Shown here one piece after another: positions 20,045 through 64,000 of a stretch of DNA of 64,000 nucleotides; the first letter of the stretch is position 1, and each line of letters begins with the position of its first letter. The position numbers were made by a program, and so were the translations under genes. This stretch comes from a virus, in the IMG/VR virus record IMGVR_UViG_3300023314_000001, positions 1-64,000 of that record. One strand, 5' to 3'. The notes beneath the pieces were generated by a model. That model was not told where the DNA came from and made no database searches. It saw only the letters and a list, made by a program, of their open reading frames with translations.

Positions 20045-20056
20045 ATTTTTATTTTG

Positions 20057-46743: not shown

Positions 46744-46766
46744 CTTAAATAAATATAATTTTTTAA

Positions 46767-48473: not shown

Positions 48474-48474
48474 A

Positions 48475-49008: not shown

Positions 49009-49009
49009 T

Positions 49010-49656: not shown

Positions 49657-49665
49657 AAATAAAAA

Positions 49666-52600
49666 ATGGCAAAAGAAGTTAAAAATTACAAATTAAAAGC
49701 TCTACCAACGAAACCGATTCCCGATGCTATATTATACATAAAGGCAGACGGAGATTCAGCTATTTCTACGTATATAACAGATATAAATGGAATACCTTAC
49801 CCTTTAAAGGATGATGCTTCATCAGGGGGGGTACAAAGTGTTTTTAATATAGATGGTACTATATCTGTAATAGGCACAACCGATGTTAAAGTTAGTATTC
49901 AATCTAGTATTTTAAGCACAATAAACTCCGCATTACAACCAGGAGATTTACCAAATACAAAAGCTGAATTTAATTCTCAATTATCTGATGGAGATTTCTT
50001 ATTTGTCGGAGATGTAATACCATATACGGATGAAGAAGCACAGAATGCTGTAGGTAATATATTTATAGATAGTAATACGATTGATATAACTTATGATGAT
50101 TTAACTCCAAGTATATCTGCAATTGTAAAACCAAATTCAATAACACCAACTGAGTTAGCAGATAATATAAACTTAACAGAGTTTGTAAATAATGCGGGTT
50201 TTGAAAATACATCTCAATTAAATACAAGGGACACTAATAATAGAAATAGAGCTAATCATACAGGAACACAAGCTATTTCAACAGTTGTTAATTTACAGAG
50301 CTCTTTAGATTCTAAGTTAGATAAAGGAGGATACATTGGCACAGCCCAAACATTATCTGATGCAATTGATGCAATTTTTGTTCCAGATCAATTAATTTCG
50401 GCTATAGCTCCTACAAGATCAGTAAATACTTTTACCTACCCAGCTTTAGGGTATACAGCTTTAATTAACAAGACTCTGAGAACAAATCCTGCTCAGTTTG
50501 TTACAACTATTACGGCTACTTCAACGACTAATCATAAAAGAGTTGATTTGATTTATTTTAAGTCAAACAATACCTTAGATAAACTTATCGGCACTGAGGA
50601 TTTAATTAGTGCGCCAAGACCAGATGTACCCGCAGGATCAGTTGGTGTCTCATTTATAAATGTTTTTGGAAATGTAATTGAAACCCCTACGCCAATTACA
50701 AATGAAATTTCGATTCAAGATACATTAGGAGTTGAGAAATTTACAATAACAGATTACATTAGATTTAGAGGAGTTGGGTTTGACCTTAGTACAAAACAAA
50801 TAAATATAGAGTCGTTGGTACCGTTTACCGTGTTTATAGACACTGTTAATGGCGATGACTTTACTGGACAAATAGAAAATAAGTCAAGACCATTTAAAAC
50901 GGATTCGGCTGCATATAATTCCCTCCCAACAGATGACGGAACAGACTGGACTATATCTTATATAGATTTAAATGTTACACGACAAATGTCAGTAATACCT
51001 AATAGGAATATAATAATAGAATGTAACAACACAGGTATATTTGATTTCTCAGGAATATCTAGTGGATTTATATCCAGTATGTCGTCAGATAAAAAGTTTA
51101 CATTTAATGCCCCTAATTGTGAATTTAGATTTATAAATAACGCTCTATCCAGCGCTGTTTATTTTACCAGTGGAATTTTAGAATTAAATATTAATTGTAC
51201 GTTATTAAACATACAAGCGAATGGTGTGTTTGATGGTAATTTCTTTGTAAGCAGTAAAACAAGTATAGAGATCTCTACAATTAGAATGAATTATGTTGCT
51301 AAATTGTTTTGTCCCTTAAATTCAAGTTCGGTTCTGGATGCAAATATTGATAGATTAGAGATTTTCAAAGGAACACTTTCTTTGTTTTATAATAATTATA
51401 TAGTTATAAACACTTTATATTCTACAATTACTGGCAGAAGTTTAATATATAATCAATTTTCACCCAGTATGTTTGATATCACGGTAAGAGGTATAGATCA
51501 AAACAGTTCTGGGGAATTATATTTTGTTAGTGGAGTTGGTACAGGAGTGTTAAAACTATATGATTTTAAAATTCCAAATCTTTTAGACTTAATATGTACA
51601 GGTAAGAATTTTTATACTGAGGGTAATTTAACTACTGATTCTAAGCCAATAACAATAATAGATGGAGCATGTAATTTTAAACTAAGAAATTTTAGCGGAA
51701 AATTACCCCTACTTCAATTTAGTGTCGATACATCAGTTGTATGGGTACTGGAAAATAGTGTGATAAATGTGCCTGCTACTTTTATAGATGCTCAAAATAT
51801 TCCAAACAAAGGTGATATTGATTTTAAAATTTTTAATTCGGTTATTACACAAGATACACCTTCTCAAATATTTAAAAATGTAAACTCGACAGGAAATAAT
51901 TTTAAAATTACTCAAACAGGATCATTTGCTACAAATGCAACTTCCATAGGTAGAAATGTAAGTTTGATATTTTCTAGTTTAACTTTCAAAGAGAAAAAAA
52001 ATGAAATAATAGTTAGAGACAAAATAGATATTATAAATAAGGTATTAAGTTCGTCTATAAAATATATTATAGACGGGGATTTAGTATTGGTTTCTGGGGA
52101 ATACATCCAAGTTCCAATTACAGGTTTAGATTTAGGGGGCTATGGATTTGATACCTCCTCAATTAGTAAAAACATATCGGGACAAAGCATTTTTATAAGT
52201 CCTGCTGGTAATAGTGGGAATTTTGTCACCAAGGATATTTCATATTTTCCAGGACAAGGAACGGTATTTAATCTAGTGGACTCAAATGGTACTCACGCAA
52301 TAGAGCTGAATGACGTTAATTTTCAGGGCGTGTCAGGGTCTTCTTTAGGCACTTTAAGTGGGTATAGACAATTTACAGGAACAACATGTGGGTTTTACGG
52401 ATTGTCAGACGGAATGACGTTAGAAGGAAATTGGAGTGGTTTTAAATTAACAAATAGTAATATTATTGGTTTTGGTTCATCTGGAACATTATTTAAAAAA
52501 GGCACAAGTACTCTGTTTTCAAATAGATTTTATATAGACTTGAATATACAGATTTCAACAGGGTCGGTTATTTGTGATTTTTTAGATATTAATTTTACAA

Positions 52601-52884
52601 ATGATAAATCATTACAAGTCGTAAACTGCTATACTAAAGTGAATGGAATTATTAATGACGCTACAACAAGTATAACATTTCCTAATATTACACCATATTC
52701 TTCAAAATCGTATTTTGTAAACAATATAGGTATTAAAAACAGCAATAACATGCCTTATGGTATTAGTACTGCAAATATGCAAACTTATGCAAATGATACT
52801 GACGCGGCTTCTGGTGGAATAGTTGCTGTAGGAGACACTTATATAGAAACTTTAACTGGATATTTTAAAAAGAGGCTTACATAA
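49666..52884 (+). CDS. large tail fibre or tailspike-like protein
   Basis: 1072 aa. RANHTGTQAISTVVNLQSSLDSKLDK is a motif common in phage fibres, and a long N/S/T/I-rich region suggests a beta-helix. Confidence 0.65.
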   Translation: MAKEVKNYKLKALPTKPIPDAILYIKADGDSAISTYITDINGIPYPLKDDASSGGVQSVFNIDGTISVIGTTDVKVSIQSSILSTINSALQPGDLPNTKAEFNSQLSDGDFLFVGDVIPYTDEEAQNAVGNIFIDSNTIDITYDDLTPSISAIVKPNSITPTELADNINLTEFVNNAGFENTSQLNTRDTNNRNRANHTGTQAISTVVNLQSSLDSKLDKGGYIGTAQTLSDAIDAIFVPDQLISAIAPTRSVNTFTYPALGYTALINKTLRTNPAQFVTTITATSTTNHKRVDLIYFKSNNTLDKLIGTEDLISAPRPDVPAGSVGVSFINVFGNVIETPTPITNEISIQDTLGVEKFTITDYIRFRGVGFDLSTKQINIESLVPFTVFIDTVNGDDFTGQIENKSRPFKTDSAAYNSLPTDDGTDWTISYIDLNVTRQMSVIPNRNIIIECNNTGIFDFSGISSGFISSMSSDKKFTFNAPNCEFRFINNALSSAVYFTSGILELNINCTLLNIQANGVFDGNFFVSSKTSIEISTIRMNYVAKLFCPLNSSSVLDANIDRLEIFKGTLSLFYNNYIVINTLYSTITGRSLIYNQFSPSMFDITVRGIDQNSSGELYFVSGVGTGVLKLYDFKIPNLLDLICTGKNFYTEGNLTTDSKPITIIDGACNFKLRNFSGKLPLLQFSVDTSVVWVLENSVINVPATFIDAQNIPNKGDIDFKIFNSVITQDTPSQIFKNVNSTGNNFKITQTGSFATNATSIGRNVSLIFSSLTFKEKKNEIIVRDKIDIINKVLSSSIKYIIDGDLVLVSGEYIQVPITGLDLGGYGFDTSSISKNISGQSIFISPAGNSGNFVTKDISYFPGQGTVFNLVDSNGTHAIELNDVNFQGVSGSSLGTLSGYRQFTGTTCGFYGLSDGMTLEGNWSGFKLTNSNIIGFGSSGTLFKKGTSTLFSNRFYIDLNIQISTGSVICDFLDINFTNDKSLQVVNCYTKVNGIINDATTSITFPNITPYSSKSYFVNNIGIKNSNNMPYGISTANMQTYANDTDAASGGIVAVGDTYIETLTGYFKKRLT

Positions 52885-52897
52885 TAAAAATAAAACA

Positions 52898-53347
52898 ATG
52901 GCAAAAAATTGCGGAAATAAAATAAGTAATACATGTGGGGCAAGAAAAAATTCAGCGTGTATAGACTTCGAAGGAACTCCTAACTCACAATCAGAATTAG
53001 TAGAAGAAACATGTTTAGATCAAGAACAAGTAACTCAGGATTTATACGACCAAGTAGGAGAAATAAAGACCGAAATAGATTTATCAGCTTTGGGAGAGTT
53101 ATGTCTTTCATATACACTCGAAGAAGGAAAAGTAATTGTAAAAAATGTTTTAGCTAAATTTGAGGAAGTCATTTGTGGCCTGCAAGAAAGAATAGCAGAA
53201 CTAGAAACAGAACCTATTTGTTCAAAACCAATTGGAGAATGTATAGATGTAATAGGTTGTTTGGTTGATCCATGTGATAATTCTATTTTAACATTAGGAG
53301 ATTGGATGAAAATAGTAGCAGAAAAAATTTGTATAAATAATGGATAA
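52898..53347 (+). CDS. Cys-rich structural protein (paralogous N-terminal module 1)
   Basis: 149 aa, 12 Cys by eye, with a central coiled coil (LQERIAELE). Confidence 0.55.
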   Translation: MAKNCGNKISNTCGARKNSACIDFEGTPNSQSELVEETCLDQEQVTQDLYDQVGEIKTEIDLSALGELCLSYTLEEGKVIVKNVLAKFEEVICGLQERIAELETEPICSKPIGECIDVIGCLVDPCDNSILTLGDWMKIVAEKICINNG

Positions 53348-53356
53348 TTTAAAAAT

Positions 53357-53602
53357 ATGAGCTGTCAAGAGTCAATAATACCTGTTTTAATAGAAGATGA
53401 GTGCCACGGAGAAAACATAAGTACTACTTGTGTCATTAAATCCGCCGCTATAACATACTTATCACTACCTCCAAACTCGACATTAACAGAAATATTAGAT
53501 GCTTATTTACTTTCATTAGTAGATGCAAGAAATAGAATACTAGTTTTAGAAGCGCAAGGAGCAAACTTTGAAACAAGAATAACCGCGTTAGAGAACGCAT
53601 AA
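53357..53602 (+). CDS. small Cys-containing coiled-coil protein (module 2)
   Basis: 81 aa. STTCVIKSAAI ... LTEILDAYLLSLVDARNRILVLE parallels the neighbouring proteins. Confidence 0.55.
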   Translation: MSCQESIIPVLIEDECHGENISTTCVIKSAAITYLSLPPNSTLTEILDAYLLSLVDARNRILVLEAQGANFETRITALENA

Positions 53603-53614
53603 CAATAATAATTT

Positions 53615-55048
53615 ATGTGCACTAATTGCCAAAAAAATAATTGTGGATGTCAACCAGAGCCTACATTCAGTCTTTGTAATCCACTTTGTCCTCCAGAACC
53701 TTGTACATGCCCAGTTGTAGATTTGTCAACAGATTGTATTGTTTTGGCACAGGATTTAGAATGTTCTGGTGTCTTAGCAGGAACAGTTTTTACAGAGGCT
53801 GTGCAACAGCTTGACGAGTACATTTGTACAGCTATTGCAGAACTAATCGCATCTATTAATTTAATTAATGTAGGAACAGGGGCTCAAATATATAAAGGTG
53901 TTGATGGAATCGGACGAAAAGAGTTAAAAACAATAACATCTGATGGATCAATTGTAATTACTCCAAGTACTAATGAAATACAGTTATCCGTTTCTTTACC
54001 TGAACTACAAGATTTACAAAGTGTATTGGATACTGGTAATACTGCTACTCAAGGAACTACTGGTTCATATGAAATGACAGATCAATATTTTAAAGCTTCA
54101 ATAACTATAAATCCAGGTGCAAATATGCAAACTGGAGGATTTGATGTTGGAGGAAATGTTGTTCAAATGGGAGGTTCTTATGGTCACGATGGTATTTTTG
54201 ATATCGGAAGTGTAACATTAAGTGGTGGTATTCTTGAATTAAGACAACAGATTGATTTTGCTAATAATAAAAAAATTAGAGTGGGATTTGAAACTCCTCT
54301 ATATAATGATGTCAATTTATTATTTCCAAATGGAACAGGATCAGGAACAAGAGTATTAGCAACTGTAGATCAAATACCAACAATTGATGGGAGCGAAACC
54401 AAGATATCTAATGGAACAAATACTACAGTTACAGGTAATGGTACAATTGCAACTCCATACCAAATTGCAGTTAATGGCTCCGAAACCAAAGTAAATGCAG
54501 GAACTAATGTAACAATAACAGGAAATGGAACTACAGCGACTCCTTACATAATTAATTCAATTGCCACAGGAGCTTCTACGGTAATAAATGCAGGAACGAA
54601 TATTTCAGTTACAGGTGCGGGAACATCGGGATCACCATTTGTAATAAGTAACACACAAGTTATAGATGGATCTGAAACCAAATTAAATAGCGGGATAACT
54701 ACAGTAGTGACAGGAAACGGAACTACTGCAACTCCATATACTGTAGAAACAGTTAACTTACAAAAAGCAATAACTGCAAATTACACTGTATTGGCCGCAG
54801 ATAACAACTATAGTATTAAAATTAATAATGGAGCAACACCAATCACAATTACAGTTCCAGCAGGGTTACCTTTAAACTTCTTTGCAGGGTTTACCCAAAA
54901 AGGAACAGCCGACGTAACATTTGTAGGATCTGGAACAACTATAACTAATCCAATTGGTTTAAAAATTAAAGGCCAAGGTTATGCTGTAGGACTAGAACAA
55001 ATAGGTACAAGTAACTCTTTTGACCTGATTGCTGACACTAAAGCTTAA
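53615..55048 (+). CDS. fibre-like protein with Cys-rich N-terminus (module 3) and four tandem repeats of about 30 aa
   Basis: The N-terminus is MCTNCQKNNCGCQPEPTFSLCNPLCPPEPCTCP. The repeats fit DGSETK-x-N-x-GTN-x-T-x-TGNGT-x-ATPY. Confidence 0.65.
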   Translation: MCTNCQKNNCGCQPEPTFSLCNPLCPPEPCTCPVVDLSTDCIVLAQDLECSGVLAGTVFTEAVQQLDEYICTAIAELIASINLINVGTGAQIYKGVDGIGRKELKTITSDGSIVITPSTNEIQLSVSLPELQDLQSVLDTGNTATQGTTGSYEMTDQYFKASITINPGANMQTGGFDVGGNVVQMGGSYGHDGIFDIGSVTLSGGILELRQQIDFANNKKIRVGFETPLYNDVNLLFPNGTGSGTRVLATVDQIPTIDGSETKISNGTNTTVTGNGTIATPYQIAVNGSETKVNAGTNVTITGNGTTATPYIINSIATGASTVINAGTNISVTGAGTSGSPFVISNTQVIDGSETKLNSGITTVVTGNGTTATPYTVETVNLQKAITANYTVLAADNNYSIKINNGATPITITVPAGLPLNFFAGFTQKGTADVTFVGSGTTITNPIGLKIKGQGYAVGLEQIGTSNSFDLIADTKA

Positions 55049-55051
55049 TAT

Positions 55052-55372
55052 ATGAATAATATAAAAAAACTAATTTTTAAGACTCAAACAGAAAATGAAA
55101 CTCCGCCAGTTAATACATCAGCTTATTATTCAGGAACATATGTGTGTACTGGAGGATTTGTTGATATAAGTTCCCCTATATTAAGAGGGAATATATATTA
55201 TGTAGGAGATTTTGGAGATTTGTCAGTCACAGGTGTATTTACAGATCCTGCTTTAACAATACCAGTTCCCTATACATATATAAGAACTGAAACGACACCT
55301 CGATATTTTATGTTTGTTAATACCACAACAGGTAGTGTGGGGTCAGTGCAAGGAGAAGGGGATACATGTTAA
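55052..55372 (+). CDS. hypothetical protein
   Basis: 106-aa ORF followed by a terminator. Confidence 0.55.
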   Translation: MNNIKKLIFKTQTENETPPVNTSAYYSGTYVCTGGFVDISSPILRGNIYYVGDFGDLSVTGVFTDPALTIPVPYTYIRTETTPRYFMFVNTTTGSVGSVQGEGDTC

Positions 55373-55405
55373 AAATATAGGTTTTTGGTCATCCTATATT
55401 CAACG

Positions 55406-55435
55406 AGGAGGGTAGAAATGCTCTCCTTTTTGTTT
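55406..55435 (+). terminator. rho-independent terminator
   Basis: AGGAGGG(T)-AGAAAT-(G)CTCTCCT forms a 7-8 bp stem including G.T pairs, followed by TTTTGTTT. Confidence 0.75.
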
Positions 55436-55479
55436 AAAATTAAGTAATTTGTTAAAGTAATTAAATATCACTAAATTTG
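55436..55479 (+). promoter_or_regulatory. late promoter copy 4 (AAAATTAAGTAATTTG-N20-TAAATTTG)
   Basis: -33 TTTG at 55448-55451, 20-nt spacer, -7 at 55472-55479, then CAAC and the ATG at 55484 (4-nt spacer). Confidence 0.7.
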
Positions 55480-55483
55480 CAAC

Positions 55484-56149
55484 ATGAGTAATAATGAAAT
55501 CACAGATATTGTACTTGACACATTAAAGGCTAATTCAAAAGATAGCAGAATTAGCAGAAGACTTGTTTTATTTACTTTAGAAAGTAAAGCAAAATTCTAT
55601 ATTAGTCAGAAGTTAAATGATAAAAGCTTATACAGAGAAGCAAATATTTATAAAGAAATACCTTGTGTTAAATTCAAAAGCATTGATATTATAAAATGCC
55701 CAATAGTTGAATTTAAAACTTGCAAAACTTTAATGAGAAGTGTAGATAAAATCCCAGAATTAATTTGGTCTAAGTATGGACACACATTAAAAGAAATTAC
55801 AAGCATTGATGGCTCTTTTACATTTGACCCCATAACTGCCACACAGTACAGAAAGAATCAACAAAGGTCGGGAAAAACAAATAAGAAATACTTTTATGTT
55901 AAAGATGGATATGTTTACATTCCAGATTATGAATTTTACACAGGAAACTTATATCTGATTTCTCAGGACTTATATGAGTTAGAGCAAATATCAGAATGCA
56001 GTGAGAATAAATGCGACTCTGTGTGGGATTTTGAATTTATTTGCCCTAATAAAATGGAAGAAGTGGTGATACAGGATACTTTAAAACAGTTATCTTTAAC
56101 TAAGCAAATTCAAGAAGATACAAATCCGAATTTAAATCCTAATGGCTAA
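55484..56149 (+). CDS. hypothetical structural protein
   Basis: 221-aa ORF behind a late promoter. Confidence 0.6.
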   Translation: MSNNEITDIVLDTLKANSKDSRISRRLVLFTLESKAKFYISQKLNDKSLYREANIYKEIPCVKFKSIDIIKCPIVEFKTCKTLMRSVDKIPELIWSKYGHTLKEITSIDGSFTFDPITATQYRKNQQRSGKTNKKYFYVKDGYVYIPDYEFYTGNLYLISQDLYELEQISECSENKCDSVWDFEFICPNKMEEVVIQDTLKQLSLTKQIQEDTNPNLNPNG

Positions 56150-56738
56150 GAAATATTTAAAAAGAGATGCTGTAAAAAGGGTGTTTAGATGCACTAATCA
56201 TAAAAAACAAATACCCCCTACAAGACAGCTTCCTGAACCTTTGTACGAAGAAAGTACTAAATTTCTAAAATCTGAATTAATATTTTCTCCTAGAGCACAT
56301 AAGTTTTACAGACAGAAAACAAAATATAATAAACGAATAGCTAAACAAAAATTATTCTTTCTAATGCGAGAATGCCTTAAAGAAATTAAGAAAAGGATGT
56401 TAGAAAATGAAGCAGGTGTCTTCATAGAAGGTTTTGGTTATTTTTGTATGATGAGGCATCCAGAGAGAAAAATAAGAAATTTTTATATTGATGGATATGT
56501 AGTAAAAGGTAAATATCTTCAAACTATGGGATGTATGTATAGTCCAGTTTTTATGCCGATAAGAAAAGATAGCTCTATGCAACAATGGACTATGGATAAA
56601 GCATTTGATCAACGACTCATCAACAGTTTAAAAAACAGACTTAGAAAAAAAAGTAAAAAATATAGAATGTCATTTATGTTATTGAATAACTTATATGGCC
56701 GAGAAAATTCTAAAATTGATCCCCCAATATTAAAATGA
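56142..56738 (+). CDS. hypothetical basic protein
   Basis: 198-aa K/R-rich ORF with overlapping junctions. Confidence 0.6.
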   Translation: MAKKYLKRDAVKRVFRCTNHKKQIPPTRQLPEPLYEESTKFLKSELIFSPRAHKFYRQKTKYNKRIAKQKLFFLMRECLKEIKKRMLENEAGVFIEGFGYFCMMRHPERKIRNFYIDGYVVKGKYLQTMGCMYSPVFMPIRKDSSMQQWTMDKAFDQRLINSLKNRLRKKSKKYRMSFMLLNNLYGRENSKIDPPILK

Positions 56739-57604
56739 CAACATTAAAAAATGTACTGGCCGACATAACATCAGATTTAAAAATGTACGATGAAATGGGA
56801 TTGATTGATGACATCTCATTAAAACTATTCTTATTAAATGAACTAAAAGGTTTTGGCGGTAATGTTATGGAAGTATACCCTCATGTATTACAAATTAAAA
56901 ACGGGCAAGCTACTTTACCTGATAACTTTTTTTCGCTTACTAAAGCTGTAAAAACAAATCCAATAGGGTGTGTTCCAGAAGCAGATTGTGACGAGCCAGA
57001 ACTAATAAACAGTTATTTTTATAGAGTTAGAAAAGAAGCCTCTGAGATTTGGGATAATGGGTCAAAAATATTAGAAGGAGATTATAAGTATGTAGAAGAG
57101 AAAACTTATTTTTTTAATAAAGATTTAAAAGCTAATTTTTACTATGGAAATAACACTATTTTAAAATTAGTTCCTGGATTTGATAAAAGTAAATTAGATT
57201 TAAAATGTGAAAATGTGTATGTTAAATCATCACCTTATCATATAAATATTATAAATAATACTTTACAAACAAATTTTTCAAAAGGGTTTATATATATCTG
57301 GTATCAAGGGCTATTAGTTGATGAAGACGAAGAAATTATTTTACCCGAAGACCCAAATAAAAATATTTATAAGTACCTTATTTCCTCAGGAAAAGCAAAA
57401 GTATTTGAATTGGTTTGGGCAAATGACGATGACGCAAACGTACTAACTAAATTACAGTTTTATAAAGGAGAGTCACAAAAAGACAAAACGGCTGCCTTAG
57501 CACAAGTAAGGTTTAATTCTATCACAGGAGAAAATTGGGATGAGGGGTTAAAACAAAGAAGAGATAAGAGATTTAGAAAATTCAATAATTTCGGCAGAGG
57601 TTAA
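56735..57604 (+). CDS. hypothetical structural protein
   Basis: 289-aa ORF. Confidence 0.6.
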   Translation: MTTLKNVLADITSDLKMYDEMGLIDDISLKLFLLNELKGFGGNVMEVYPHVLQIKNGQATLPDNFFSLTKAVKTNPIGCVPEADCDEPELINSYFYRVRKEASEIWDNGSKILEGDYKYVEEKTYFFNKDLKANFYYGNNTILKLVPGFDKSKLDLKCENVYVKSSPYHINIINNTLQTNFSKGFIYIWYQGLLVDEDEEIILPEDPNKNIYKYLISSGKAKVFELVWANDDDANVLTKLQFYKGESQKDKTAALAQVRFNSITGENWDEGLKQRRDKRFRKFNNFGRG

Positions 57605-57626
57605 CAATTAAAAATAAAGTACAGTT

Positions 57627-60600
57627 TTGACTAAACCAGATATAAAATTCAATCAACCTCAAAGAGGATTAAATAGAGATCAATATAATTTAGGAGAAGC
57701 TGATTACTCAACTCTTTTGAATGGCCTTTTTGATGGAATAGATGGAGGAAGTTTCACTTTAACTAATGAAATGTCTAATTTACTTTCCTCTAGATTTAAA
57801 GCAGGATTTAAAGTAATTAATGGTACAAATGATATTTATTCCAACTCAACATATTTCTTTCTGGTAAATCCTACAACAGGTGTGGGAGAATTTGGGCAGA
57901 TAAAAAATGTTCAGCAAATTCAAAATATTGATGACTTACAGAATGATTGCGAAGGATGTGTAAAATACTTTGATTTAGCGGAACCATTAGAAAATATTAC
58001 GCAGACAGAATTAAATACATATGAAACATTACTTAATGATGAGTGTCATATATTAGCTGGGGAACCAGAAAAAGGATTTCAATTTTCCATTAACTCACCG
58101 ATTAAAAAAACAGTTATTAAAAATGAGAAGTGCGGTAAAACAATATACTTCACTGATGACAATACACCTCCTAGATACATAGTATTAGATAATTTACAGC
58201 AATATAAACAAACAGGAGATATTAATTGCGGAGTGGATGAAATAATTCCTACGTGTTTAGACGCAGACAAATTACTTATATTTAAAAGGTATAACTTACC
58301 TGAATTAACTCCAGTTTCAATTGAATTAGGAGGAAGACTTAAATTAGGCACATATGAGTTTTTAATTGCTTATACAGATCAATTAGGCAATGAAATATCA
58401 GAATATACTTCTATAACTAATCCTATTCAAATATTTGACAGAAATAATGTCACTTTAACCCAAGCAGAATTAGGAACACCAACTAATTTTTCTATTAAAC
58501 TTCAAGTTGGAAATTTAGATAAAAGATTTACACATTATAAAATTGCAGTTATTCAAACAACTTTAGAGGATGTTGGAGTGACACGATTTTTCGTAGAAGG
58601 AATCCACAATATAAACGACACTACAGTTATTTATGGAGGGGAACAAAATAAACAAACAATTGAATTATCTGATTTAATTAGAGAAAATTTATATATCCAA
58701 CGTTGGGAATTTTTAACTGAGAGTAATAATTCATTAATAGGGGCGGGAATAACAACTGAAAAAGAAATAAACCTGCAACCTATAGTTAATTTACTAGGAT
58801 CTTTTTTAAAGTGGCAAACACATATAGCTAAAGAAGACTTATATAAAGATGGAGTAAAAGACTCACTGTATTTATCTATCAATAGAGATGAAGTAGTGCC
58901 TTACTCTATAAGATTTTTATTAGAAGGTGGATATAAAACATCTTTATTTCCTTTAATTAATAGAAATGCAAAAGAAAGTGACTTAATAGAAGTGCCTGTC
59001 ACCAACAAAGATAGAGTTTCTATAGAGTCAAATAAAAGTGCTTGTAATTCAACAGACAGAACTAAATATTGGCAATACTATAATACAGCAACTGAAGATG
59101 AAGATTTTTGTTCTTCTGACTCTTTGGAAATAGTTGAAGTACAGGAAGACATTCAAAAAAACTGTGTTTATCAAAATGTTATTACTACGCCAGGCGCAAC
59201 GTTCAGTATAGAAACAACTCAGAATTATGTAGATTTAACAACTTTTATAACTGATACTATTACTAATGGTGATTGCTTAACATATGCAAATTGTCCATCT
59301 CCTTCCGATCCAAATTCTTATCCTTTCTGTAATTATTTTGATATAGACTGTTATACTAATTTAAATTGCACACCAAATTATAATAATTGTGAAGCGCCTA
59401 TATTAGATGATGAAGAATTAATTGTAGGAGCAATTGTGGGAGAATCTGCTACTATGGTGGACGCTATTTTTCCAACAGAATATGTTAAAACAAAACCTCC
59501 GCAAACTTGTACAATTTACGAGTTAGATACAAGCACAGGGAATCCAAAAAGAAATACAGATTTTGAGAATGCTTTTATGCAATGTGTATTGGCAATACCA
59601 CCAAGACCGCGTATTGCATTTTACAGAACTCTTCAATTTGAAAATTTAGAATGCACGTACGCTGATGCAATTGCAGAGATTACACCTACAAGTAGTTTTA
59701 ATCAAGGATATTTTCATGATTATTATGGCGCGTCAACAATAGCAGAATTACAAACAACAAAAGACACAGTTGCTTCAGGGGCAGAATGGACAAATAAACT
59801 ACACAAAGGGGTTTTATGGTTTAAGGGAGATATATTAAGCAGAGATAGATTCGTATTAGAAGTGTCTAAAATAAAAGAACTACAAGACACAGATGATATT
59901 TCAGCAGGAACTAATATCAGGGTTTCGATTTATAATAAATGTAATTCAACAACACCTTTATATTCTAAAGTAGTAGATGCAGGGCAAGGAGAGATGCTAT
60001 TTTTTCAAAAAGCAGATAACTCTTTAGATTGGACTATTACTAATGAAGCAGGAACTTCTACAAATATAGGGCAAATTTCAGGTCAAAACTTTTATGTAGC
60101 TATCGATGCTAAAATCATAAGTCAAGTTAATTGTGACCCAGCAGCAGTATATAGAACAGCACCTTTAAGCGGATGTTTTGCTGTAGTTATTAGAAGTAGA
60201 GAATATTCTAGAATAGATGTAACTTATGAATCTATAAGAATAGATAAAAAACAAACTTACACGGCAACTTGTACATTCAATAAACCTGTTGCAAATTCAT
60301 GTATAGCCACTCCATATAAAAAAGGAGATTTTGCTTATTGGGAAAGTCAAGAGATTTACCCCGATAATACTTCTTTATATGATTCTAGCACCTTAAAAAT
60401 AAAACCTGCGGATATAAACATTTTTCAAAGAGAAAAATTTGAATTAGAATTTGTAGAAGGCACAACTATTTCAGAGGTGTTTATACCTATTTTAGATTCA
60501 GAAGGCAATTACCAGTGGAAGAAAGACAGTGTTGAAAAACCTTTAGTAAATTTTACTTGTAGAAATATAAGACATTTTAAATTTCCTGATAATAAGGTTA

Positions 60601-63600
60601 GTCCTTTTATGTATGAAAATCCTCAATTGACTCAAAGTGATTCAGTGATATATCCATTAGGAATAACAATAGATGAAACCACAATAAATTCATTTTTAGA
60701 TATTGCGGTTAATAACGGACTACTTAACGAAGAAAAAAGAAATCAAATATCAGGATATGAAATATTCAGAGGAGATATAGCGCAAGATAGAAGTATAATG
60801 TCTTCGGGGCTTATATTTGATATGAGAAAGTACACAGATGACAATGACAAAACACAGTCTATTTATTATTCTAATTACCCTTATAATGATCTAGGAAGTG
60901 ATATTTTAAATTATTCAGATAGAAGCAGAACAACATTTATCCCACATCCTTACAATGGATTAAAGAATGATAAATTCACTTATCATAGTCCAGAAACAGA
61001 TTATTATAGATATACACTACCAACAGAATTATCTGTTCAGGGATATGTATTCGGCCAAACAGACAACAGTTATTTTAATGAAGTAAAAGATCATCCAAAA
61101 TTTGTAATATTAACAAGAAAAGCAAAAGATTTAGCAGGATTATTAGCAGGATTAGAAGTAGCCACAGAAGTAGCAGTACAATTGGCAAATGCAGGAGAGA
61201 ATTATAGAGTTGCAGCAGGATTTGTAGTATCTGTGAATCCAGCAGGTATTGTACTTTCTATTATAGCAGGAGCTTTATCAGCAATTAGTTCTGTAGTTGT
61301 AAATTATGGCCGACACCGATTAGACTGGATAAAAGCATTTAGAGATTTAGGGCAACCTGAAAACTTCTCTTCATATTTTCATTCTAGTGCTAAGTACAAT
61401 TACATGCAATTATTACAAGAAAATGGAAATCAAATCAGATCTTTATATTCGGCAAAATATTTAAAAGAAGGTAATTTTTCACAAGTAGATGATGTTACAG
61501 GAGAAAAAATAAGCATAAATAATTTAGACAGAGAAAAATCTGTTTTATTAACTTTAGGCGTTTCTAATACACTAAATTATCCTACAGAATACGTATCTTT
61601 TGATAATAATAAAATAGATACAAACACATCTTCTTTAACTATAGCAAGTCAAAATAATGCTTGTACTACAGGGATAAGTAAAGTAATAAAGAAAAATGTG
61701 GCCAACCCATACGTAGCTTTAAAAAACTACTTGCCTTCACAATACGGTACAATTAATTCTATAAAATGGTTGTCAACAGGATACAGAGGAGACTTGAAAA
61801 ACCCTAAAACAATATGCTTATCTATTTTTGGAGGGGACACTTTTATTTCCAGACACACACTTAAAAGAAAAATGCCGTTGTTTACAGACACAGCATTTGG
61901 TTTAGCTAGTTTAACTCCATTTAATTATAAATTTTATTCTAATATAGGAAGAGAACCTAGATTTTATGTAGATTATGAAGTAATGACAGACTATAGAAGA
62001 CAGTCTGCTTTATTCCCAGACATAGATTATGATTTAAAATTTGATTGTGAAACTAAACAAACTAATTACTATAGACCACCGAGCAAATTTTATCTGTATT
62101 ATTACGGAGTACCTAATTTCTTAACTGAAACTAGAATAAATACCTGGAATAGAACCGCCGAACCAACACTAGAAAGAAACTTTTATCCAAATACAGGAGA
62201 TACATCTGAATGGACACAAGAAAAAAACGTTTCAATTAAAAAAGGAGAATTTTTCTTCTATAATCAAATATACTCTAAACCTGTAACCACTACAGCATAT
62301 AGAACATTGTCAGATAATTTTGATCAGTCAGAAAGCGATTGTAGAAATGATAATCCTAATGGTATAATGTGGTCGCAACCAGATAATAGTGAAAACAATT
62401 ATAATGATCCTTACTTAAATTACAAACCATTAGACTTTTATGAGTTTGACAGTAAATATGGCAAACTAAAAGATATCCGCACAATTGAAAGAGAGCAAAT
62501 TCTAATTAGACAAGAAAATGCAACTTCTCTATTTAATGCTATTGATGTAGCTGTAGATGATGGTAAAAGAGCGGATTCAAGAAATTTATCTTCAGCTTTT
62601 GCAAGAAGACCGATGACCTATTCAGAAACAGATCTTGGATTTGGAGGAACGGGAAGTTCAGAATCCGTAAGTTGTGAGTTTGGCCATTATCATGTAGATG
62701 CTAAAAGAGGACAAGTTATTGAGATTCCAAGTGGCGGACAAGGAATGAACGAGATATCTAGTTTAATAAACGGTAAACCAAGCGGAATGAGAAATTGGTT
62801 TAAAGAACATCTTCCATTTAAAATACTAAAATCTCAAATAGCAAATATAAGCGATTTAGACACAGATAATGCAATAAATGGAGTTGGTATAGCTATGGGA
62901 TATGATAGTCGATTCAGACGTGTATTTATAACTAAAAAAGACTATATACCTAAAGTTGATCCATGTTTAAAATTTGATAAGAATATTGGTTTTTATACAG
63001 ACTGTGGAGAAAGTGAGATAACTTGTCCGATAGGATACGAATATAATCCAACAACAGAATTATGTGAAAAAATAACATTATCAGGAACCTTGTGTCCAGA
63101 TGGATATATTTATGATGAAGATATACAGACATGTACACTTTCAACGACAGTACCAGCAGATTGTGATTGTGAAGCTACAGTAGTTGCAACACCACCTTCT
63201 CAAAATATAAATAGTGGCCAAACAACAAACATCACTTTAAGTGGAGATCTAGGAGCACTTTTCACATGGACAGTAGTTCAAAGCGGAGTTACAGGAGCAA
63301 CAAGTGGATCAGGAACATCAATAACTGATTTATTAATTAATGATGGAATTACTTCGGGTACGGCTGTTTATACGATCACACCTACAATTGATGGATGTAT
63401 TTCAATTACAACAGTTGTTACAGTGACAGTTCAACCGCCAGCCATAAATTTTGATGTTGTTTCGACAAATTGGGGAACATTGTCTACAGTAAGTGCTTGG
63501 GAATCATTTTTCTTAACGCAATCTGGAACAACTTTTGCAACTATAACTAATTTTTCATTAACTGGCGGAAGAGTTAGATTTAGAATAAATACGGATGCAA

Positions 63601-64000
63601 CAAGCTTATTTTTAAATGGCAGAAATATAACTACTGTTAATATTATAAGTATAGCAACTCTTAGTACATTATTATTAACTGCAAACCAAATCGTAACATT
63701 TAATCCTATTGAAGCTTTACCAAGTGGATTGTCGGTATTGACTTTGCAAACTAACCAAATTGTAACATTTAATCCAACAATTCCATTACCTAGTAGTTTA
63801 AATACTTTAAATCTGGCTGTTAACCAAATTGTGACATTTAACCCTGCTATTGCTTTACCTGCTAACTTACAAAATTTAACTTTACAGTCTAACCAAATTG
63901 TGACATTTAACCCTACTTTACCATTACCTAGTAATTTAAAAAGTTTAACGTTATCTACAAATAAAATTGTAACATTCGATCCAACAATAGCCCTACCTTC
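57627..64000 (+). CDS. giant virion or adhesin-like protein, 5' portion only (more than 2124 codons, open at the window end)
   Basis: Hand translation in the frame starting at TTG 57627 (first in-frame ATG at 57771) is open to 64000. The frame was spot-checked at 58080, 59400, 60591, 62370 and 63996. An in-frame stop lies at 57615-57617. The ORF is not in the supplied track. It contains Cys-rich segments, a hydrophobic stretch, a PKD-like domain and at least 5 LRR units. Confidence 0.8.
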   Translation, partial: MTKPDIKFNQPQRGLNRDQYNLGEADYSTLLNGLFDGIDGGSFTLTNEMSNLLSSRFKAGFKVINGTNDIYSNSTYFFLVNPTTGVGEFGQIKNVQQIQNIDDLQNDCEGCVKYFDLAEPLENITQTELNTYETLLNDECHILAGEPEKGFQFSINSPIKKTVIKNEKCGKTIYFTDDNTPPRYIVLDNLQQYKQTGDINCGVDEIIPTCLDADKLLIFKRYNLPELTPVSIELGGRLKLGTYEFLIAYTDQLGNEISEYTSITNPIQIFDRNNVTLTQAELGTPTNFSIKLQVGNLDKRFTHYKIAVIQTTLEDVGVTRFFVEGIHNINDTTVIYGGEQNKQTIELSDLIRENLYIQRWEFLTESNNSLIGAGITTEKEINLQPIVNLLGSFLKWQTHIAKEDLYKDGVKDSLYLSINRDEVVPYSIRFLLEGGYKTSLFPLINRNAKESDLIEVPVTNKDRVSIESNKSACNSTDRTKYWQYYNTATEDEDFCSSDSLEIVEVQEDIQKNCVYQNVITTPGATFSIETTQNYVDLTTFITDTITNGDCLTYANCPSPSDPNSYPFCNYFDIDCYTNLNCTPNYNNCEAPILDDEELIVGAIVGESATMVDAIFPTEYVKTKPPQTCTIYELDTSTGNPKRNTDFENAFMQCVLAIPPRPRIAFYRTLQFENLECTYADAIAEITPTSSFNQGYFHDYYGASTIAELQTTKDTVASGAEWTNKLHKGVLWFKGDILSRDRFVLEVSKIKELQDTDDISAGTNIRVSIYNKCNSTTPLYSKVVDAGQGEMLFFQKADNSLDWTITNEAGTSTNIGQISGQNFYVAIDAKIISQVNCDPAAVYRTAPLSGCFAVVIRSREYSRIDVTYESIRIDKKQTYTATCTFNKPVANSCIATPYKKGDFAYWESQEIYPDNTSLYDSSTLKIKPADINIFQREKFELEFVEGTTISEVFIPILDSEGNYQWKKDSVEKPLVNFTCRNIRHFKFPDNKVSPFMYENPQLTQSDSVIYPLGITIDETTINSFLDIAVNNGLLNEEKRNQISGYEIFRGDIAQDRSIMSSGLIFDMRKYTDDNDKTQSIYYSNYPYNDLGSDILNYSDRSRTTFIPHPYNGLKNDKFTYHSPETDYYRYTLPTELSVQGYVFGQTDNSYFNEVKDHPKFVILTRKAKDLAGLLAGLEVATEVAVQLANAGENYRVAAGFVVSVNPAGIVLSIIAGALSAISSVVVNYGRHRLDWIKAFRDLGQPENFSSYFHSSAKYNYMQLLQENGNQIRSLYSAKYLKEGNFSQVDDVTGEKISINNLDREKSVLLTLGVSNTLNYPTEYVSFDNNKIDTNTSSLTIASQNNACTTGISKVIKKNVANPYVALKNYLPSQYGTINSIKWLSTGYRGDLKNPKTICLSIFGGDTFISRHTLKRKMPLFTDTAFGLASLTPFNYKFYSNIGREPRFYVDYEVMTDYRRQSALFPDIDYDLKFDCETKQTNYYRPPSKFYLYYYGVPNFLTETRINTWNRTAEPTLERNFYPNTGDTSEWTQEKNVSIKKGEFFFYNQIYSKPVTTTAYRTLSDNFDQSESDCRNDNPNGIMWSQPDNSENNYNDPYLNYKPLDFYEFDSKYGKLKDIRTIEREQILIRQENATSLFNAIDVAVDDGKRADSRNLSSAFARRPMTYSETDLGFGGTGSSESVSCEFGHYHVDAKRGQVIEIPSGGQGMNEISSLINGKPSGMRNWFKEHLPFKILKSQIANISDLDTDNAINGVGIAMGYDSRFRRVFITKKDYIPKVDPCLKFDKNIGFYTDCGESEITCPIGYEYNPTTELCEKITLSGTLCPDGYIYDEDIQTCTLSTTVPADCDCEATVVATPPSQNINSGQTTNITLSGDLGALFTWTVVQSGVTGATSGSGTSITDLLINDGITSGTAVYTITPTIDGCISITTVVTVTVQPPAINFDVVSTNWGTLSTVSAWESFFLTQSGTTFATITNFSLTGGRVRFRINTDATSLFLNGRNITTVNIISIATLSTLLLTANQIVTFNPIEALPSGLSVLTLQTNQIVTFNPTIPLPSSLNTLNLAVNQIVTFNPAIALPANLQNLTLQSNQIVTFNPTLPLPSNLKSLTLSTNKIVTFDPTIALP
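63660..64000 (+). repeat. tandem 69-bp coding repeat (23-aa leucine-rich repeats)
   Basis: AACCAAATYGTRACATTTAAYCC recurs at 63684, 63753, 63822 and 63891, with a degenerate copy at 63960. The period is exactly 69 nt. The peptide unit is L-x-L-x-x-N-Q-I-V-T-F-N-P-x-x-x-L-P-x-x-L. Confidence 0.85.

What the first reader, a model, noticed from the sequence alone, without database searches (positions are those of the whole stretch)
57627..64000. Giant ORF (more than 2124 codons, still open at the window edge) missing from the ORF track: modular virion or adhesin protein with Cys-rich, hydrophobic, PKD-like and LRR segments
Reading frame 0 from TTG 57627 (the stop just upstream is at 57615; the first ATG is at 57771) stays open to 64000. 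The supplied track shows nothing on the plus strand here, only short antisense ORFs, presumably because no stop codon lies in the window.

Modules seen by hand translation:
- an N-terminal approximately 450-aa region with a beta-rich repeat flavour (TIYFTDDNTPPRYIVLD);
- a Cys-rich stretch at about 59040-59420 (CNST..FCSSD..NCVYQ..GDCLTYANCPSPSDPNSYPFCNYFDIDCYTNLNCTPNYNNCE);
- an Ala/Gly/Val-rich hydrophobic segment at about 61120-61310 (LAGLLAGLEVATEVAVQLANAGENYRVAAGFVVSVNPAGIVLSIIAGALSAISSVVV) that could insert into membranes;
- EGF-like Cys spacing at about 62960-63170 (CPIGYEYNPTTELCEKITLSGTLCPDGYIYDEDIQTC);
- a Bacteroidota-type PKD-like domain at about 63160-63440 (TWTVVQSGVTGATSGSGTSITDLLINDGITSGTAVYTITPTIDGCISITTVVTVTVQP);
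- at least 5 perfect-period 23-aa leucine-rich repeats (63660 to the end).

LRR and PKD-like modules are host cell-surface adhesion modules. Their fusion to a possible membrane-active segment in a phage protein of more than 2100 aa is unusual. It may represent the receptor-binding or envelope-penetration device of a virion for which no tape measure, tube or sheath was recognised.
Basis: seen in the sequence. Interest (0 to 1): 0.7.

Follow-up and report, generated by a model that had tools for sequence, protein, structure and literature searches.

The report
Split giant crAss-type tail muzzle gene
The giant open reading frame is the large piece of a phage tail-tip "muzzle" protein of the crAss-like kind, here unusually split into two genes and carrying a swappable leucine-rich-repeat module that probably recognises the host surface.

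Summary
Frame 0 from TTG 57627 is open to the window edge (2,124 codons). A contig identical to the window (0 mismatches in 17,266 nt) closes it at 2,233 aa, 328 nt past the edge.

It is not an orphan adhesin. It is the crAss-type tail muzzle ("stabilization") protein of a ~143-kb phage related to Cellulophaga phages phi4:1/phi17:2. An AlphaFold model of residues 1-1160 has one significant PDB match, the PhicrAss001 muzzle (7QOK, E 2.6e-12). Profile-profile comparison with gp44 relatives gives 96.6% probability. Close homologues pass Pfam crAss_MUZ. CrAss ring-protein genes lie directly upstream. The phi4:1 homologue is annotated as found in virions by MS/MS.

The family is large (608 clusters at 50% identity).

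Three things appear to be undescribed:
- The gene is split. The last ~250 aa of the fold are made by a separate 313-aa gene 10 nt downstream. The break lies inside a Cys-rich stalk that displays PKD plus eight LRRs.
- The LRR block is a recombination cassette: dS 1.2 against 0.2-0.3 elsewhere, measured against a 93%-identical relative.
- A conserved hydrophobic helical hairpin is present that gp44 lacks.

Receptor binding and membrane insertion are inferred, not shown.

The parts
55484..56149 (+). Tail barrel ring protein gene (CrAss_Ring_2 type, 221 aa)
   Evidence: Pfam PF25702 at 94.8 bits, cutoff 27. 37% identical to phi4:1 gp045, matches a csAssE-Sib 'Ring protein', and matches PhicrAss001 Gp40, which is ring protein R2.
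56142..56738 (+). Small conserved ORF (198 aa) between the two ring genes; function unknown
   Evidence: phrog_35389. Homologous to phi4:1 gp044. Present at the same position in L004-L008.
56735..57604 (+). Probable tail barrel ring protein gene (CrAss_Ring_1 type, 289 aa), directly upstream of the muzzle gene as gp43 is in PhicrAss001
   Evidence: Pfam PF24228 at 26.3 bits, E 5.9e-6, just under the cutoff of 27. Orthologues in L006 and L007 carry PF24228. 31% identical to phi4:1 gp043, an MS/MS virion protein.
57627..64000 (+). MUZ-N, the large fragment of the split tail muzzle protein. 2,124 codons lie in the window; the complete protein is 2,233 aa, ending at window-equivalent 64328.
57669..58931 (+). 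Residues 15-435: ring-joining domain, first beta-propeller blades and an IG1-like domain
   Evidence: hhalign against the gp44 family: 96.6% probability, E 4.9e-10, aligned to gp44 11-387. Foldseek 7qok_A at E 2.6e-12. Domain names are from PMC10172136.
58932..61106 (+). Residues 436-1160: family-specific distal domain, beta-rich. It includes the conserved Cys cluster (residues 473-588, nt 59043-59390) and a more variable patch (residues 601-800).
   Evidence: The AlphaFold2 (AF2) model has pLDDT mostly 75-94 over residues 600-1050. No hhalign similarity to the gp44 crass domain. Only weak lectin/jelly-roll-like Foldseek hits. Conserved cysteines. dN is 0.057 in residues 601-800.
61116..61349 (+). 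Residues 1164-1241: conserved hydrophobic helical hairpin (an amphipathic helix, a Gly-rich turn, then a hydrophobic helix)
   Evidence: KD19 hydropathy 2.31. 74 of 88 relatives reach KD19 >=1.6, and the flanks are conserved. dN/dS is 0.02. Predicted as two long helices at pLDDT about 63-75. Absent from gp44, whose maximum KD19 is 1.07.
61350..62951 (+). Residues 1242-1775: the most conserved core, containing the later beta-propeller blades
   Evidence: Residues 1493-1730 align to gp44 965-1170 (hhalign E 8.7e-5). Pfam crAss_MUZ matches the equivalent region of P0011 and P0110. dN/dS is 0.01.
62964..63170 (+). Residues 1780-1848: outgoing Cys-rich stalk (two CPxGY...C units).
   Evidence: Cysteines at 1780, 1793, 1800, 1813, 1823, 1836, 1846 and 1848. 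The same stalk opens the insertions of fused relatives. No EGF Pfam hit.
63207..63437 (+). Residues 1861-1937: PKD-like (Ig-fold) domain
   Evidence: Pfam PKD_5 at E 5.4e-9, 36.3 bits, cutoff 25. This is the only confidently modelled part of the C-terminal half, at pLDDT 81-90.
63582..64000 (+). Residues 1986-2124: LRR cassette (an N-terminal flank plus the first five and a half of eight 23-aa repeats; the rest and the cap lie beyond the window)
   Evidence: Repeat register. 69-nt tandem repeat. PDB LRR hits. Against the sister phage, dS is 1.2 and dN 0.29, compared with 0.2-0.3 and <=0.03 elsewhere.

Best explanation
**What it is.** The ORF encodes MUZ-N, the large subunit of a two-gene version of the crAss-type tail muzzle protein. 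The phage is a ~143-kb relative of Cellulophaga phages phi4:1/phi17:2 and of the gut 'epsilon crAss-like' phages.

**Shown here.**
- Residues 15-435 are homologous in sequence profile and in predicted fold to the ring-joining domain, first propeller blades and IG1 of PhicrAss001 gp44.
- Residues ~1493-1775 correspond to later propeller blades.
- The genes just upstream are crAss ring-protein homologues.
- The ~250-aa end of the fold, which is fused in about 60% of relatives, is encoded here by a separate 313-aa gene (MUZ-C) 10 nt downstream.

**Inferred.**
- Six MUZ-N/MUZ-C pairs form the closed tip of the short tail. They dock on the ring barrel, act as the gate that retains DNA and cargo proteins, and open on host contact, as proposed for gp44.
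- At a surface loop equivalent to about gp44 residue 1170-1190, the chain leaves the propeller on a disulfide-rich stalk, displays a PKD domain and eight LRRs, and ends.
- MUZ-C starts with the returning half of the stalk and supplies the remaining blades and C-terminal domain. The two chains complement each other non-covalently or through disulfides.
- The PKD-LRR module is the host-surface recognition element. It is exchanged between close relatives by recombination.
- The conserved hydrophobic hairpin in the family-specific distal domain is either a buried core element or a stored membrane-insertion element released at infection. I put membrane insertion at about 35%.
For: **Identity.**
- phrog_37948 'virion structural protein' matches at E=0 over residues 9-1780.
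- 45% identity over residues 9-1778 to phi4:1 gp042, which the GenBank record annotates from MS/MS proteomics.
- The csAssE-Sib homologue is annotated 'Muzzle protein'.
- The AF2 model (pLDDT 76) has a single significant PDB hit, 7qok_A, at E 2.6e-12.
- About 30 crAss-like 'stabilization proteins' top the viral structure library, at E 1e-8 to 2e-55.
- hhalign of family against family gives 96.6% probability, E 4.9e-10.
- Pfam crAss_MUZ scores 139.6, 84.5, 72.2 and 55.9 bits in four homologues 45-59% identical to the query.
- Ring_2 and Ring_1 genes lie upstream, and synteny with phi4:1 gp045-gp042 holds.

**Split.**
- The C-module is absent from about 50 of 120 homologues, including every PKD-bearing one.
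- It is found as a separate ~310-aa gene in five contigs, with its own ATG. The giant gene ends in TAA, and in the two contigs checked the downstream gene lies in a different frame.
- Pfam crAss_MUZ spans the core/C-module junction in the fused P0110.
- The mapping to gp44 is colinear.
- Cys-rich stalks flank the insertions of fused relatives and match the MUZ-N linker and the MUZ-C N-terminus.

**Selection.** The core has dN/dS 0.01-0.09. The LRR block has dS 1.2 and dN 0.29.

**Hairpin conservation.**
Against: - The window protein itself does not reach Pfam crAss_MUZ in hmmscan. A family HMM finds nothing in PDB sequences.
- The C-terminal-half model is poor (pLDDT 51), and its Foldseek hits are generic. 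The blade count and the exact split point in the fold are therefore inferred only from alignments. One of these is weak: the C-module against gp44 1191-1320 gives E 3.5e-3 and 9% probability.
- The middle 800 aa have no detectable similarity to the gp44 crass domain, so the geometry of the tip may differ.
- There is no experimental evidence for this phage: no virion proteomics, no stoichiometry, and no binding or membrane data.
- The high dS in the LRRs could partly reflect repeat shuffling or misregistered repeats rather than import from another lineage.
Confidence: 0.7

Rival explanations
1. It is a lateral adhesin or tail-fibre-like receptor-binding protein (essentially the reader's view). 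It would not be part of the axial tail channel, and its similarity to muzzle proteins would be limited to a shared docking domain.
For: PKD and LRR modules are typical of adhesins. The middle 800 aa do not resemble gp44. There are weak lectin/CBM-like Foldseek hits.
Against: Homology to gp44 covers both the N-terminal 420 aa and the C-terminal propeller region colinearly, not just a docking domain. The gene sits where gp44 sits, right after the ring gene. No other muzzle candidate was noted among the neighbouring ORFs scanned, or in phi4:1 or csAssE-Sib.
Confidence: 0.06
2. It is an internal cargo or ejection protein, like T7 gp15/gp16 or the large virion proteins of N4-like phages. It would be expelled at infection, and its hydrophobic hairpin would build a trans-envelope conduit.
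For: It is very large, is present in virions in phi4:1, and has a conserved TM-grade hydrophobic hairpin. A tail-lysozyme-domain protein is encoded just downstream.
Against: The only significant structural matches are muzzle/stabilization proteins. A beta-propeller with displayed PKD/LRR domains is an external architecture. The cysteine-rich stalks suggest an oxidising, exposed location.
Confidence: 0.05
3. The two-gene arrangement is not real at the protein level. Either the stop is bypassed (recoding, frameshift, intron or intein-like joining), or it is an assembly or sequencing error or a decaying pseudogene.
For: crAss-like phages are known to recode TGA/TAG in late genes, including muzzle genes (PMC12386605). 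A homing-endonuclease-like ORF sits at the junction in two relatives.
Against: - The stop is TAA in all five contigs examined. The spacer is only 10-11 nt where no endonuclease ORF intervenes, and the downstream gene has its own ATG; in the two contigs checked it lies in a different frame.
- The arrangement recurs in independent assemblies whose MUZ-C proteins are only 43-86% identical.
- Both halves are under strong purifying selection.
- The LRR array ends in a proper C-terminal cap.
Confidence: 0.04
4. It is the muzzle, but the PKD-LRR module is not the specific receptor-binding determinant. It would mediate weak, general adherence to polysaccharide, capsule or mucus, or act as a structural brace. 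Specificity would reside in the separate fibre genes upstream.
For: Ig-like/PKD domains on phage surfaces often mediate non-specific glycan adherence (my own knowledge of the Hoc/BAM literature). Large fibre-like ORFs lie upstream, at 46767-48473 and 49666-52884. In PhicrAss001, dedicated fibres attach to hub proteins.
Against: The LRR block is the one segment that has been exchanged between phages whose muzzle genes are otherwise 97-100% identical in protein. This is the signature expected of a specificity determinant. Other relatives display quite different modules (VWA and others) at the same site.
Confidence: 0.2

Closest known systems
PhicrAss001 gp44 tail muzzle protein (PDB 7QOK; Pfam crAss_MUZ PF25731 and crAss_MUZ_C PF25729; Bayfield et al. 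2023, PMC10172136)
   Same: The N-terminal ring-joining domain, propeller blades and IG1 match by profile and by predicted fold. The later propeller region is colinear. The gene lies directly after the ring-protein gene. By inference it has the same role as a hexameric tail-tip gatekeeper.
   Different: - It is 2,233 + 313 aa in two genes, against 1,371 aa in one.
- The distal 'crass domain' is not recognisable.
- It has a hydrophobic hairpin that gp44 lacks.
- It has a stalk-mounted PKD-LRR display module at a loop near gp44 residue 1170-1190.
- The window protein alone does not reach the Pfam model.
Cellulophaga phage phi4:1 gp042 / phi17:2 homologue (genus Lightbulbvirus; phrog_37948)
   Same: 45% identity over residues 9-1778. 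The upstream genes gp045, gp044 and gp043 are the same. It has a hydrophobic segment at the same place. It is annotated as detected in virions by MS/MS.
   Different: gp042 is a fused single chain of 2,289 aa, with a different ~280-aa insertion and the C-module in the same polypeptide. It has no PKD or LRR.
Muzzle protein of gut phage csAssE-Sib (epsilon crAss-like; OR575929, PMC11054128)
   Same: 34-35% identity over most of the core. The depositors annotate it as a muzzle protein, with ring proteins upstream. The genome size class is similar (151 kb).
   Different: It comes from a different habitat (human gut). Its hydrophobic segment is weaker (KD19 1.51). Its C-terminal architecture was not analysed here.
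Phage T7 gp12 nozzle
   Same: According to PMC10172136, the ring-joining domain and seven-bladed propeller of gp44 resemble the T7 nozzle. By transitivity this protein belongs to the same broad class of podovirus tail-tip propeller proteins.
   Different: No T7 nozzle entry reached significance in the Foldseek PDB search. This protein is about three times larger, with large insertions.
phi29 gp9 tail knob with hydrophobic pore-forming loops (my own recollection of Xu et al. 2016; not checked here)
   Same: A tail-tip protein of a short-tailed phage carrying a stored hydrophobic element that could insert into the host membrane. This is a functional analogy for the hairpin at residues 1164-1241.
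   Different: There is no detected homology. Membrane activity here is purely hypothetical.
Bacterial LRR proteins (for example Leptospira LIC10831, PDB 4U06) and Bacteroidota PKD_5 domains
   Same: The LRR region hits 4U06 at E 5e-10. PKD_5 scores above the Pfam cutoff.
   Different: Here the modules are grafted on a Cys-rich stalk onto a phage tail-tip protein, and they terminate the polypeptide.

Membership tests
crAss-type tail muzzle protein (gp44 / crAss_MUZ) | Detectable sequence homology to canonical crassvirus muzzle proteins | tested here: met
   Family-against-family hhalign gives 96.6% probability, E 4.9e-10, with residues 15-435 aligned to gp44 11-387. Residues 1493-1730 align to gp44 965-1170 at E 8.7e-5. 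Four homologues 45-59% identical to the query pass Pfam crAss_MUZ at 56-140 bits, cutoff 27. Caveat: the window protein alone gives no crAss_MUZ hit at E<=0.1.
crAss-type tail muzzle protein (gp44 / crAss_MUZ) | N-terminal ring-joining domain plus beta-propeller with an inserted Ig-like domain (fold) | tested here: met
   The AF2 model of residues 1-1160 (pLDDT 76) has 7qok_A as its only PDB hit at E<=0.001: E 2.6e-12, probability 1.0, 402 columns. About 30 crAss-like stabilization proteins lead the BFVD search.
crAss-type tail muzzle protein (gp44 / crAss_MUZ) | Gene located immediately downstream of tail barrel ring-protein genes | tested here: met
   CrAss_Ring_2 (94.8 bits) lies at 55484-56149 and CrAss_Ring_1 (26.3 bits, borderline) at 56735-57604. 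In PhicrAss001, gp43 (R1) directly precedes gp44.
crAss-type tail muzzle protein (gp44 / crAss_MUZ) | Typical rather than defining: the whole propeller and C-terminal domain lie in one polypeptide | tested here: not met
   The C-module, corresponding to roughly gp44 1191-1320 and beyond, is a separate 313-aa gene 10 nt downstream. About 50 of 120 relatives share this split.
crAss-type tail muzzle protein (gp44 / crAss_MUZ) | Distal 'crass fold' domain inserted in IG2 | tested here: not met
   Residues 436-1229 show no hhalign similarity to the gp44 family (best E 0.07). The Foldseek alignment to 7QOK covers only 402 columns. A large distal domain exists, but it cannot be equated with the crass fold.
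crAss-type tail muzzle protein (gp44 / crAss_MUZ) | Hexamer closing the tail tip of the virion | not testable with these tools
   There is only indirect support: the phi4:1 homologue is annotated as an MS/MS-detected virion protein.
Leucine-rich repeat proteins | Tandem LxxLxLxxN-type repeats of 20-30 aa | tested here: met
   Eight in-register 23-aa repeats, five and a half of them in the window. 69-nt tandem repeat. 4U06 hit at E 5e-10. Pfam LRR_8 reaches only 21.2 bits against a cutoff of 27.
PKD_5 (PKD-like domain, PF19406) | Score above the Pfam gathering threshold | tested here: met
   36.3 bits against 25, residues 1861-1937. Well modelled as a beta-sandwich.
EGF-like domains | Match to an EGF family profile | tested here: not met
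   No EGF family at E<=0.1. In homologue P0058 there is only cEGF at E 0.35. The segment is better described as a lineage-specific Cys-rich stalk.
Membrane-inserting or pore-forming tail-tip elements (phi29 gp9-like) | A hydrophobic segment of transmembrane grade that is released and inserts into membranes | tested here: inconclusive
   Hydropathy is met (KD19 2.31) and the segment is conserved. Release and insertion cannot be tested. The model confidence is moderate to low.
Diversity-generating retroelement target | A template repeat near the variable region (and a reverse transcriptase) | tested here: not met
   There is no second copy of the LRR or PKD sequence in the window or in 26.7 kb of the sister contig. 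The LRR divergence includes saturated synonymous change, unlike adenine-directed mutagenesis. No specific search for a reverse transcriptase was made.

The most novel reading that the evidence does not exclude
This lineage builds its tail-tip beta-propeller from two polypeptides. The break lies inside a disulfide-rich stalk that projects a recombinationally swappable LRR receptor-binding cassette from the muzzle itself. Host recognition, gate opening and (through the conserved hydrophobic hairpin) outer-membrane penetration would then all be integrated in one assembly. That would identify the muzzle, rather than the fibres, as a primary host-range determinant in a large group of crAss-related Bacteroidota phages.
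Probability: 0.3. Interest if true: 0.65.

Novelty: new variant of a known kind. Interest (0 to 1): 0.45.

Why it matters
It is poorly understood how crAss-like and related Bacteroidota phages recognise and open their hosts. The PhicrAss001 structure paper only proposes that the muzzle contacts the cell surface.

This family offers natural experiments on that idea. One site on the muzzle carries different display domains in different lineages (PKD-LRR, VWA and others). The polypeptide is broken there in about 40% of members. In this phage the LRR block has been exchanged between near-identical genomes. Together these give a concrete, testable candidate for a host-range determinant.

The family also has cultured members (phi4:1 and phi17:2 on Cellulophaga baltica) in which the fused form could be compared with split forms.

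For genome annotation, the ~310-aa gene after 'giant structural protein' genes should be recognised as the muzzle C-terminal fragment.

Tried and rejected
- **Megablast of the ORF against 50,697 phage records:** no match. Only protein-level relatives exist.
- **phmmer and a family HMM against PDB sequences:** only LRR hits, or nothing. The muzzle link needed profile-profile and fold comparison.
- **BLASTP of the 289-aa upstream ORF against PhicrAss001 gp43:** nothing. The Pfam Ring_1 profile was needed.
- **AF2 of residues 1131-2124:** poor (pLDDT 51). Foldseek on it gave generic Ig and propeller hits, which I disregard.
- **Pfam on MUZ-C and on the intervening 194-aa ORF:** no family. 'Homing endonuclease-like' for that ORF rests only on its presence/absence polymorphism and on motifs I recognise by eye.
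- **Exact-match search for the window's last 60 nt in viral and metagenome contig collections:** nothing. The source genome was recovered instead through an exact-protein look-up.
- **Holmfeldt et al. 2013 (phi4:1 description):** not held. Podovirus morphology of phi4:1 is from my memory.
- **Considered and rejected:** tape measure (no such fold or context), DGR target, and stop-codon recoding (the stops are TAA).

Full report
**1. The observation**

The ORF tool omits the frame only because it does not list ORFs that run off the source.

The region is about 31% G+C. An open frame of 2,124 codons is therefore far beyond chance. TTG 57627 is the probable start. Homologues start at the equivalent codon (P0002 with ATG), and family conservation starts at residue 14, well upstream of the first ATG.

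**2. Closing the ORF**

An exact-identity look-up of the complete upstream 289-aa protein returned a 143,078-bp ENA metagenome contig (locus L008). Its sequence is identical to window 46735-64000, with 0 mismatches in 17,266 nt.

In that contig the gene ends with TAA at window-equivalent 64326-64328. The protein is 2,233 aa. It carries eight in-register 23-aa LRRs (residues 2000-2183) and a ~50-aa C-terminal cap.

**3. What the protein is**

- PHROGs places residues 9-1780 in phrog_37948, 'virion structural protein', at E=0.
- tblastn against GenBank phages finds Cellulophaga phages phi4:1 and phi17:2 at 45% identity over residues 9-1778. It also finds the gut phage csAssE-Sib at 35%.
- phi4:1 gp042 (2,289 aa) is annotated 'virion structural protein ... 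based on experimental MS/MS proteomics'.
- The csAssE-Sib homologue is annotated 'Muzzle protein', with 'Ring protein' genes upstream.

I treated that label as a lead and tested it in four ways.

- **Fold.** An AlphaFold2 model of residues 1-1160 (36-sequence alignment, mean pLDDT 76) has exactly one PDB match at E<=0.001. It is 7qok_A, the PhicrAss001 tail muzzle assembly, at E 2.6e-12, probability 1.0 and 402 columns. Against predicted viral structures, about 30 top hits (E 1e-8 to 2e-55) are crAss-like 'stabilization proteins'. That is the older name for the muzzle. They include the proteins of prototypical crAssphage and Cellulophaga phage phi14:2.
- **Profile against profile.** The giant family against a 14-member gp44 family gives 96.6% probability and E 4.9e-10. 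Residues 15-435 align to gp44 11-387. According to Bayfield et al. (PMC10172136), that stretch is the ring-joining domain, propeller blades 1-3 and IG1. Local hhalign adds residues 1493-1730 against gp44 965-1170 at E 8.7e-5.
- **Curated Pfam thresholds.** The window protein itself does not reach crAss_MUZ. Homologues 45-59% identical to it do, at 139.6, 84.5, 72.2 and 55.9 bits against a cutoff of 27. These hits cover both ends of the profile.
- **Context.** The ORF at 55484-56149 is a CrAss_Ring_2 protein (94.8 bits). The ORF directly upstream, 56735-57604, hits CrAss_Ring_1 at 26.3 bits, just under the cutoff of 27. Its orthologues in two relatives are above the cutoff. In PhicrAss001 the R1 ring gene gp43 directly precedes gp44. 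The block is syntenic with phi4:1 gp045-gp042.

I conclude with high confidence that this is a crAss-type tail muzzle protein. For phi4:1 that is my recollection of Holmfeldt et al. 2013, which is not held in the paper library.

**4. How common it is**

The exhaustive search with residues 1230-1780 finds 608 clusters at 50% identity with E<=1e-3, and 326 with E<=1e-30. Nearly all are 2,000-2,500 aa. 'Giant muzzle' proteins are thus a large and diverse family, and the size alone is not unusual. One member already carries the automatic name 'stabilization protein' in nr.

**5. The unexpected part: the gene is split**

In alignments of the family, conservation is continuous from residue 14 to about 1773 and then collapses. 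Most relatives end with a conserved ~250-aa module (YFxDVSWTIAYSP...GLWSHLLTN...SYQVFYG) that the window protein lacks.

Of 120 homologues, about 70 are 'fused'. They have the core, then either a 15-30-aa linker or a 140-540-aa insertion, then the C-module. About 50 lack the C-module, including every PKD-bearing member.

In the window's own genome and in four relatives, the C-module is encoded by a separate 307-313-aa gene just downstream.
- These proteins match the C-terminus of phi4:1 gp042 at E 1e-58 to 1e-70, and are 43-86% identical to each other.
- Each has its own ATG, and the giant gene ends in TAA in all five contigs.
- The spacer is 10-11 nt where nothing intervenes, and the frames differ in the two contigs I checked (L005, L008).
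- Recoding, readthrough and assembly error are therefore unlikely.

In the fused member P0110, Pfam crAss_MUZ spans the core/C-module junction in one stretch: residues 1566-1909 against profile positions 951-1212, with the junction at about residue 1850. The separate C-module aligns to gp44 1191-1320. That alignment is weak (E 3.5e-3), but it falls exactly where colinearity predicts. The break therefore corresponds to about gp44 residue 1170-1190, inside the C-terminal propeller region. MUZ-C most likely supplies the last blades and the C-terminal domain. This last step is inference, because the AF2 model of residues 1131-2124 was poor (pLDDT 51).

**6. Where the break lies**

They close it with a second cysteine-rich segment just before the C-module. 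One example is P0100, CNCPEGYTQVTIDDVVYC. This closely resembles the N-terminus of the separate MUZ-C proteins, such as MACNCPNTETCTQQTIGDQVVCNC in this genome.

The simplest reading is that one surface loop of the muzzle acquired a two-stranded disulfide-rich stalk that displays accessory domains. Those domains are VWA and others in fused forms, and PKD followed by LRR or other modules in split forms. In the split forms the chain is broken after the displayed domain. No EGF profile is matched.

**7. The LRR block is an exchanged cassette**

Against the closest relative (P0001 on contig L004, 93% identical overall), protein identity is 90-100% per 100-aa window across residues 1-2000, and 97-100% over most of the core. 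It drops to about 60% in the LRRs.
- Nei-Gojobori estimates give dS 0.19-0.34 and dN 0.002-0.027 for the regions upstream of the LRRs. Their dN/dS is 0.01-0.09.
- For residues 1986-2124 they give dS 1.2 and dN 0.29.
- A jump in synonymous as well as non-synonymous divergence indicates recombination or cassette replacement, rather than only point-mutational selection.
- No second LRR copy or template exists in the window or the sister locus, which argues against a diversity-generating retroelement.

A milder variable patch lies at residues 601-800 (dN 0.057).

**8. The hydrophobic segment**

Residues 1195-1227 reach a 19-residue Kyte-Doolittle mean (KD19) of 2.31.
- The segment is conserved. 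74 of 88 aligned relatives reach KD19 >=1.6.
- It sits between the conserved motifs HPKWVIL and GRYRYEWLKxFRDLG.
- Its dN/dS is 0.02.
- The weak model predicts two long helices, about 1164-1192 and 1205-1241.
- PhicrAss001 gp44 has nothing comparable; its maximum KD19 is 1.07.

I cannot tell whether this is a buried core element or a stored membrane-insertion device. The phi29 gp9 loops, which I recall from the literature, would be an analogue for the second possibility. I put membrane insertion at about one in three.

**9. Mechanism proposed**

Shown:
- homology, gene context, the split, and the conserved stalk;
- cassette exchange and purifying selection.

Inferred:
- Six MUZ-N/MUZ-C heterodimers dock on the ring barrel and close the tail, as the gp44 hexamer does.
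- The PKD-LRR modules project from the muzzle and engage a host-surface ligand.
- That engagement triggers the rearrangement which opens the gate for cargo proteins and DNA. Bayfield et al. propose this role for the gp44 crass domain.

**10. Novelty**

The protein's identity is known in kind, and relatives are annotated. The library search for 'muzzle protein' returns only four papers. In the passages I read, none mentions a split muzzle gene, a displayed LRR cassette or the hydrophobic hairpin. I therefore rate it a new variant of a known kind, of moderate interest.

Noticed in passing
window 25204-26856 (+): A 550-aa ORF is a full-length chaperonin: Pfam Cpn60_TCP1, E 1.5e-56, covering profile positions 1-485 of 490. 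So the phage encodes a GroEL-like protein.
   Followed up: no
L004 16703-17375, L007 12697-13485 (sister contigs, beyond the window edge): A 194- or 243-aa ORF sits between MUZ-N and MUZ-C in two relatives. The two copies are 53% identical to each other. It is absent from L005, L006 and the window's own genome L008. In L004 a remnant of the MUZ-C 5' end (ATGGTTTGTAATTGTC...) is left in the spacer. This behaves like a free-standing homing-endonuclease insertion, but there is no Pfam hit.
   Followed up: partly
window 38845-40179 (+) and 28727-29863 (+): There are two further nuclease-like mobile-element candidates inside the late gene block. One is an HNH/homing endonuclease (phrog_559, E 2e-67). 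The other is an ORF with DUF4379, DUF723 and MUG113 hits.
   Followed up: no
window ~24000: GC skew and AT skew change sign at about 24 kb. ORFs switch from the minus strand (1-23559) to the plus strand (24731 onward), giving two divergent transcription blocks.
   Followed up: no
window 20056-20130 (-): A single tRNA-Met (CAT) gene lies in the minus-strand block.
   Followed up: no
window 46767-48473 (+) and 49666-52884 (+): Two large ORFs lie upstream of the ring genes. The 568-aa one has many short tail-fibre and minor-tail PHROG hits. The 1,072-aa one (phrog_16509) is replaced by ORFs of different size in the close relative L004 (897 and 455 aa). These are probably variable fibre genes.
   Followed up: no
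window 59427-60026 (residues 601-800 of the muzzle): This is a second, milder variable patch within the otherwise highly conserved muzzle: dN 0.057 against <=0.027 elsewhere, and 79-81% identity to P0002 against 86-98% over the rest of the region upstream of the stalk. It may consist of exposed loops of the distal domain.
   Followed up: partly
L008 18548-20870 / L004 19120-21684 (just beyond the window): The genes after MUZ-C encode a large protein with an N-terminal Phage_lysozyme2 (tail lysozyme) domain (E 1e-28). It is a likely ejected cell-wall-degrading cargo protein.
   Followed up: no
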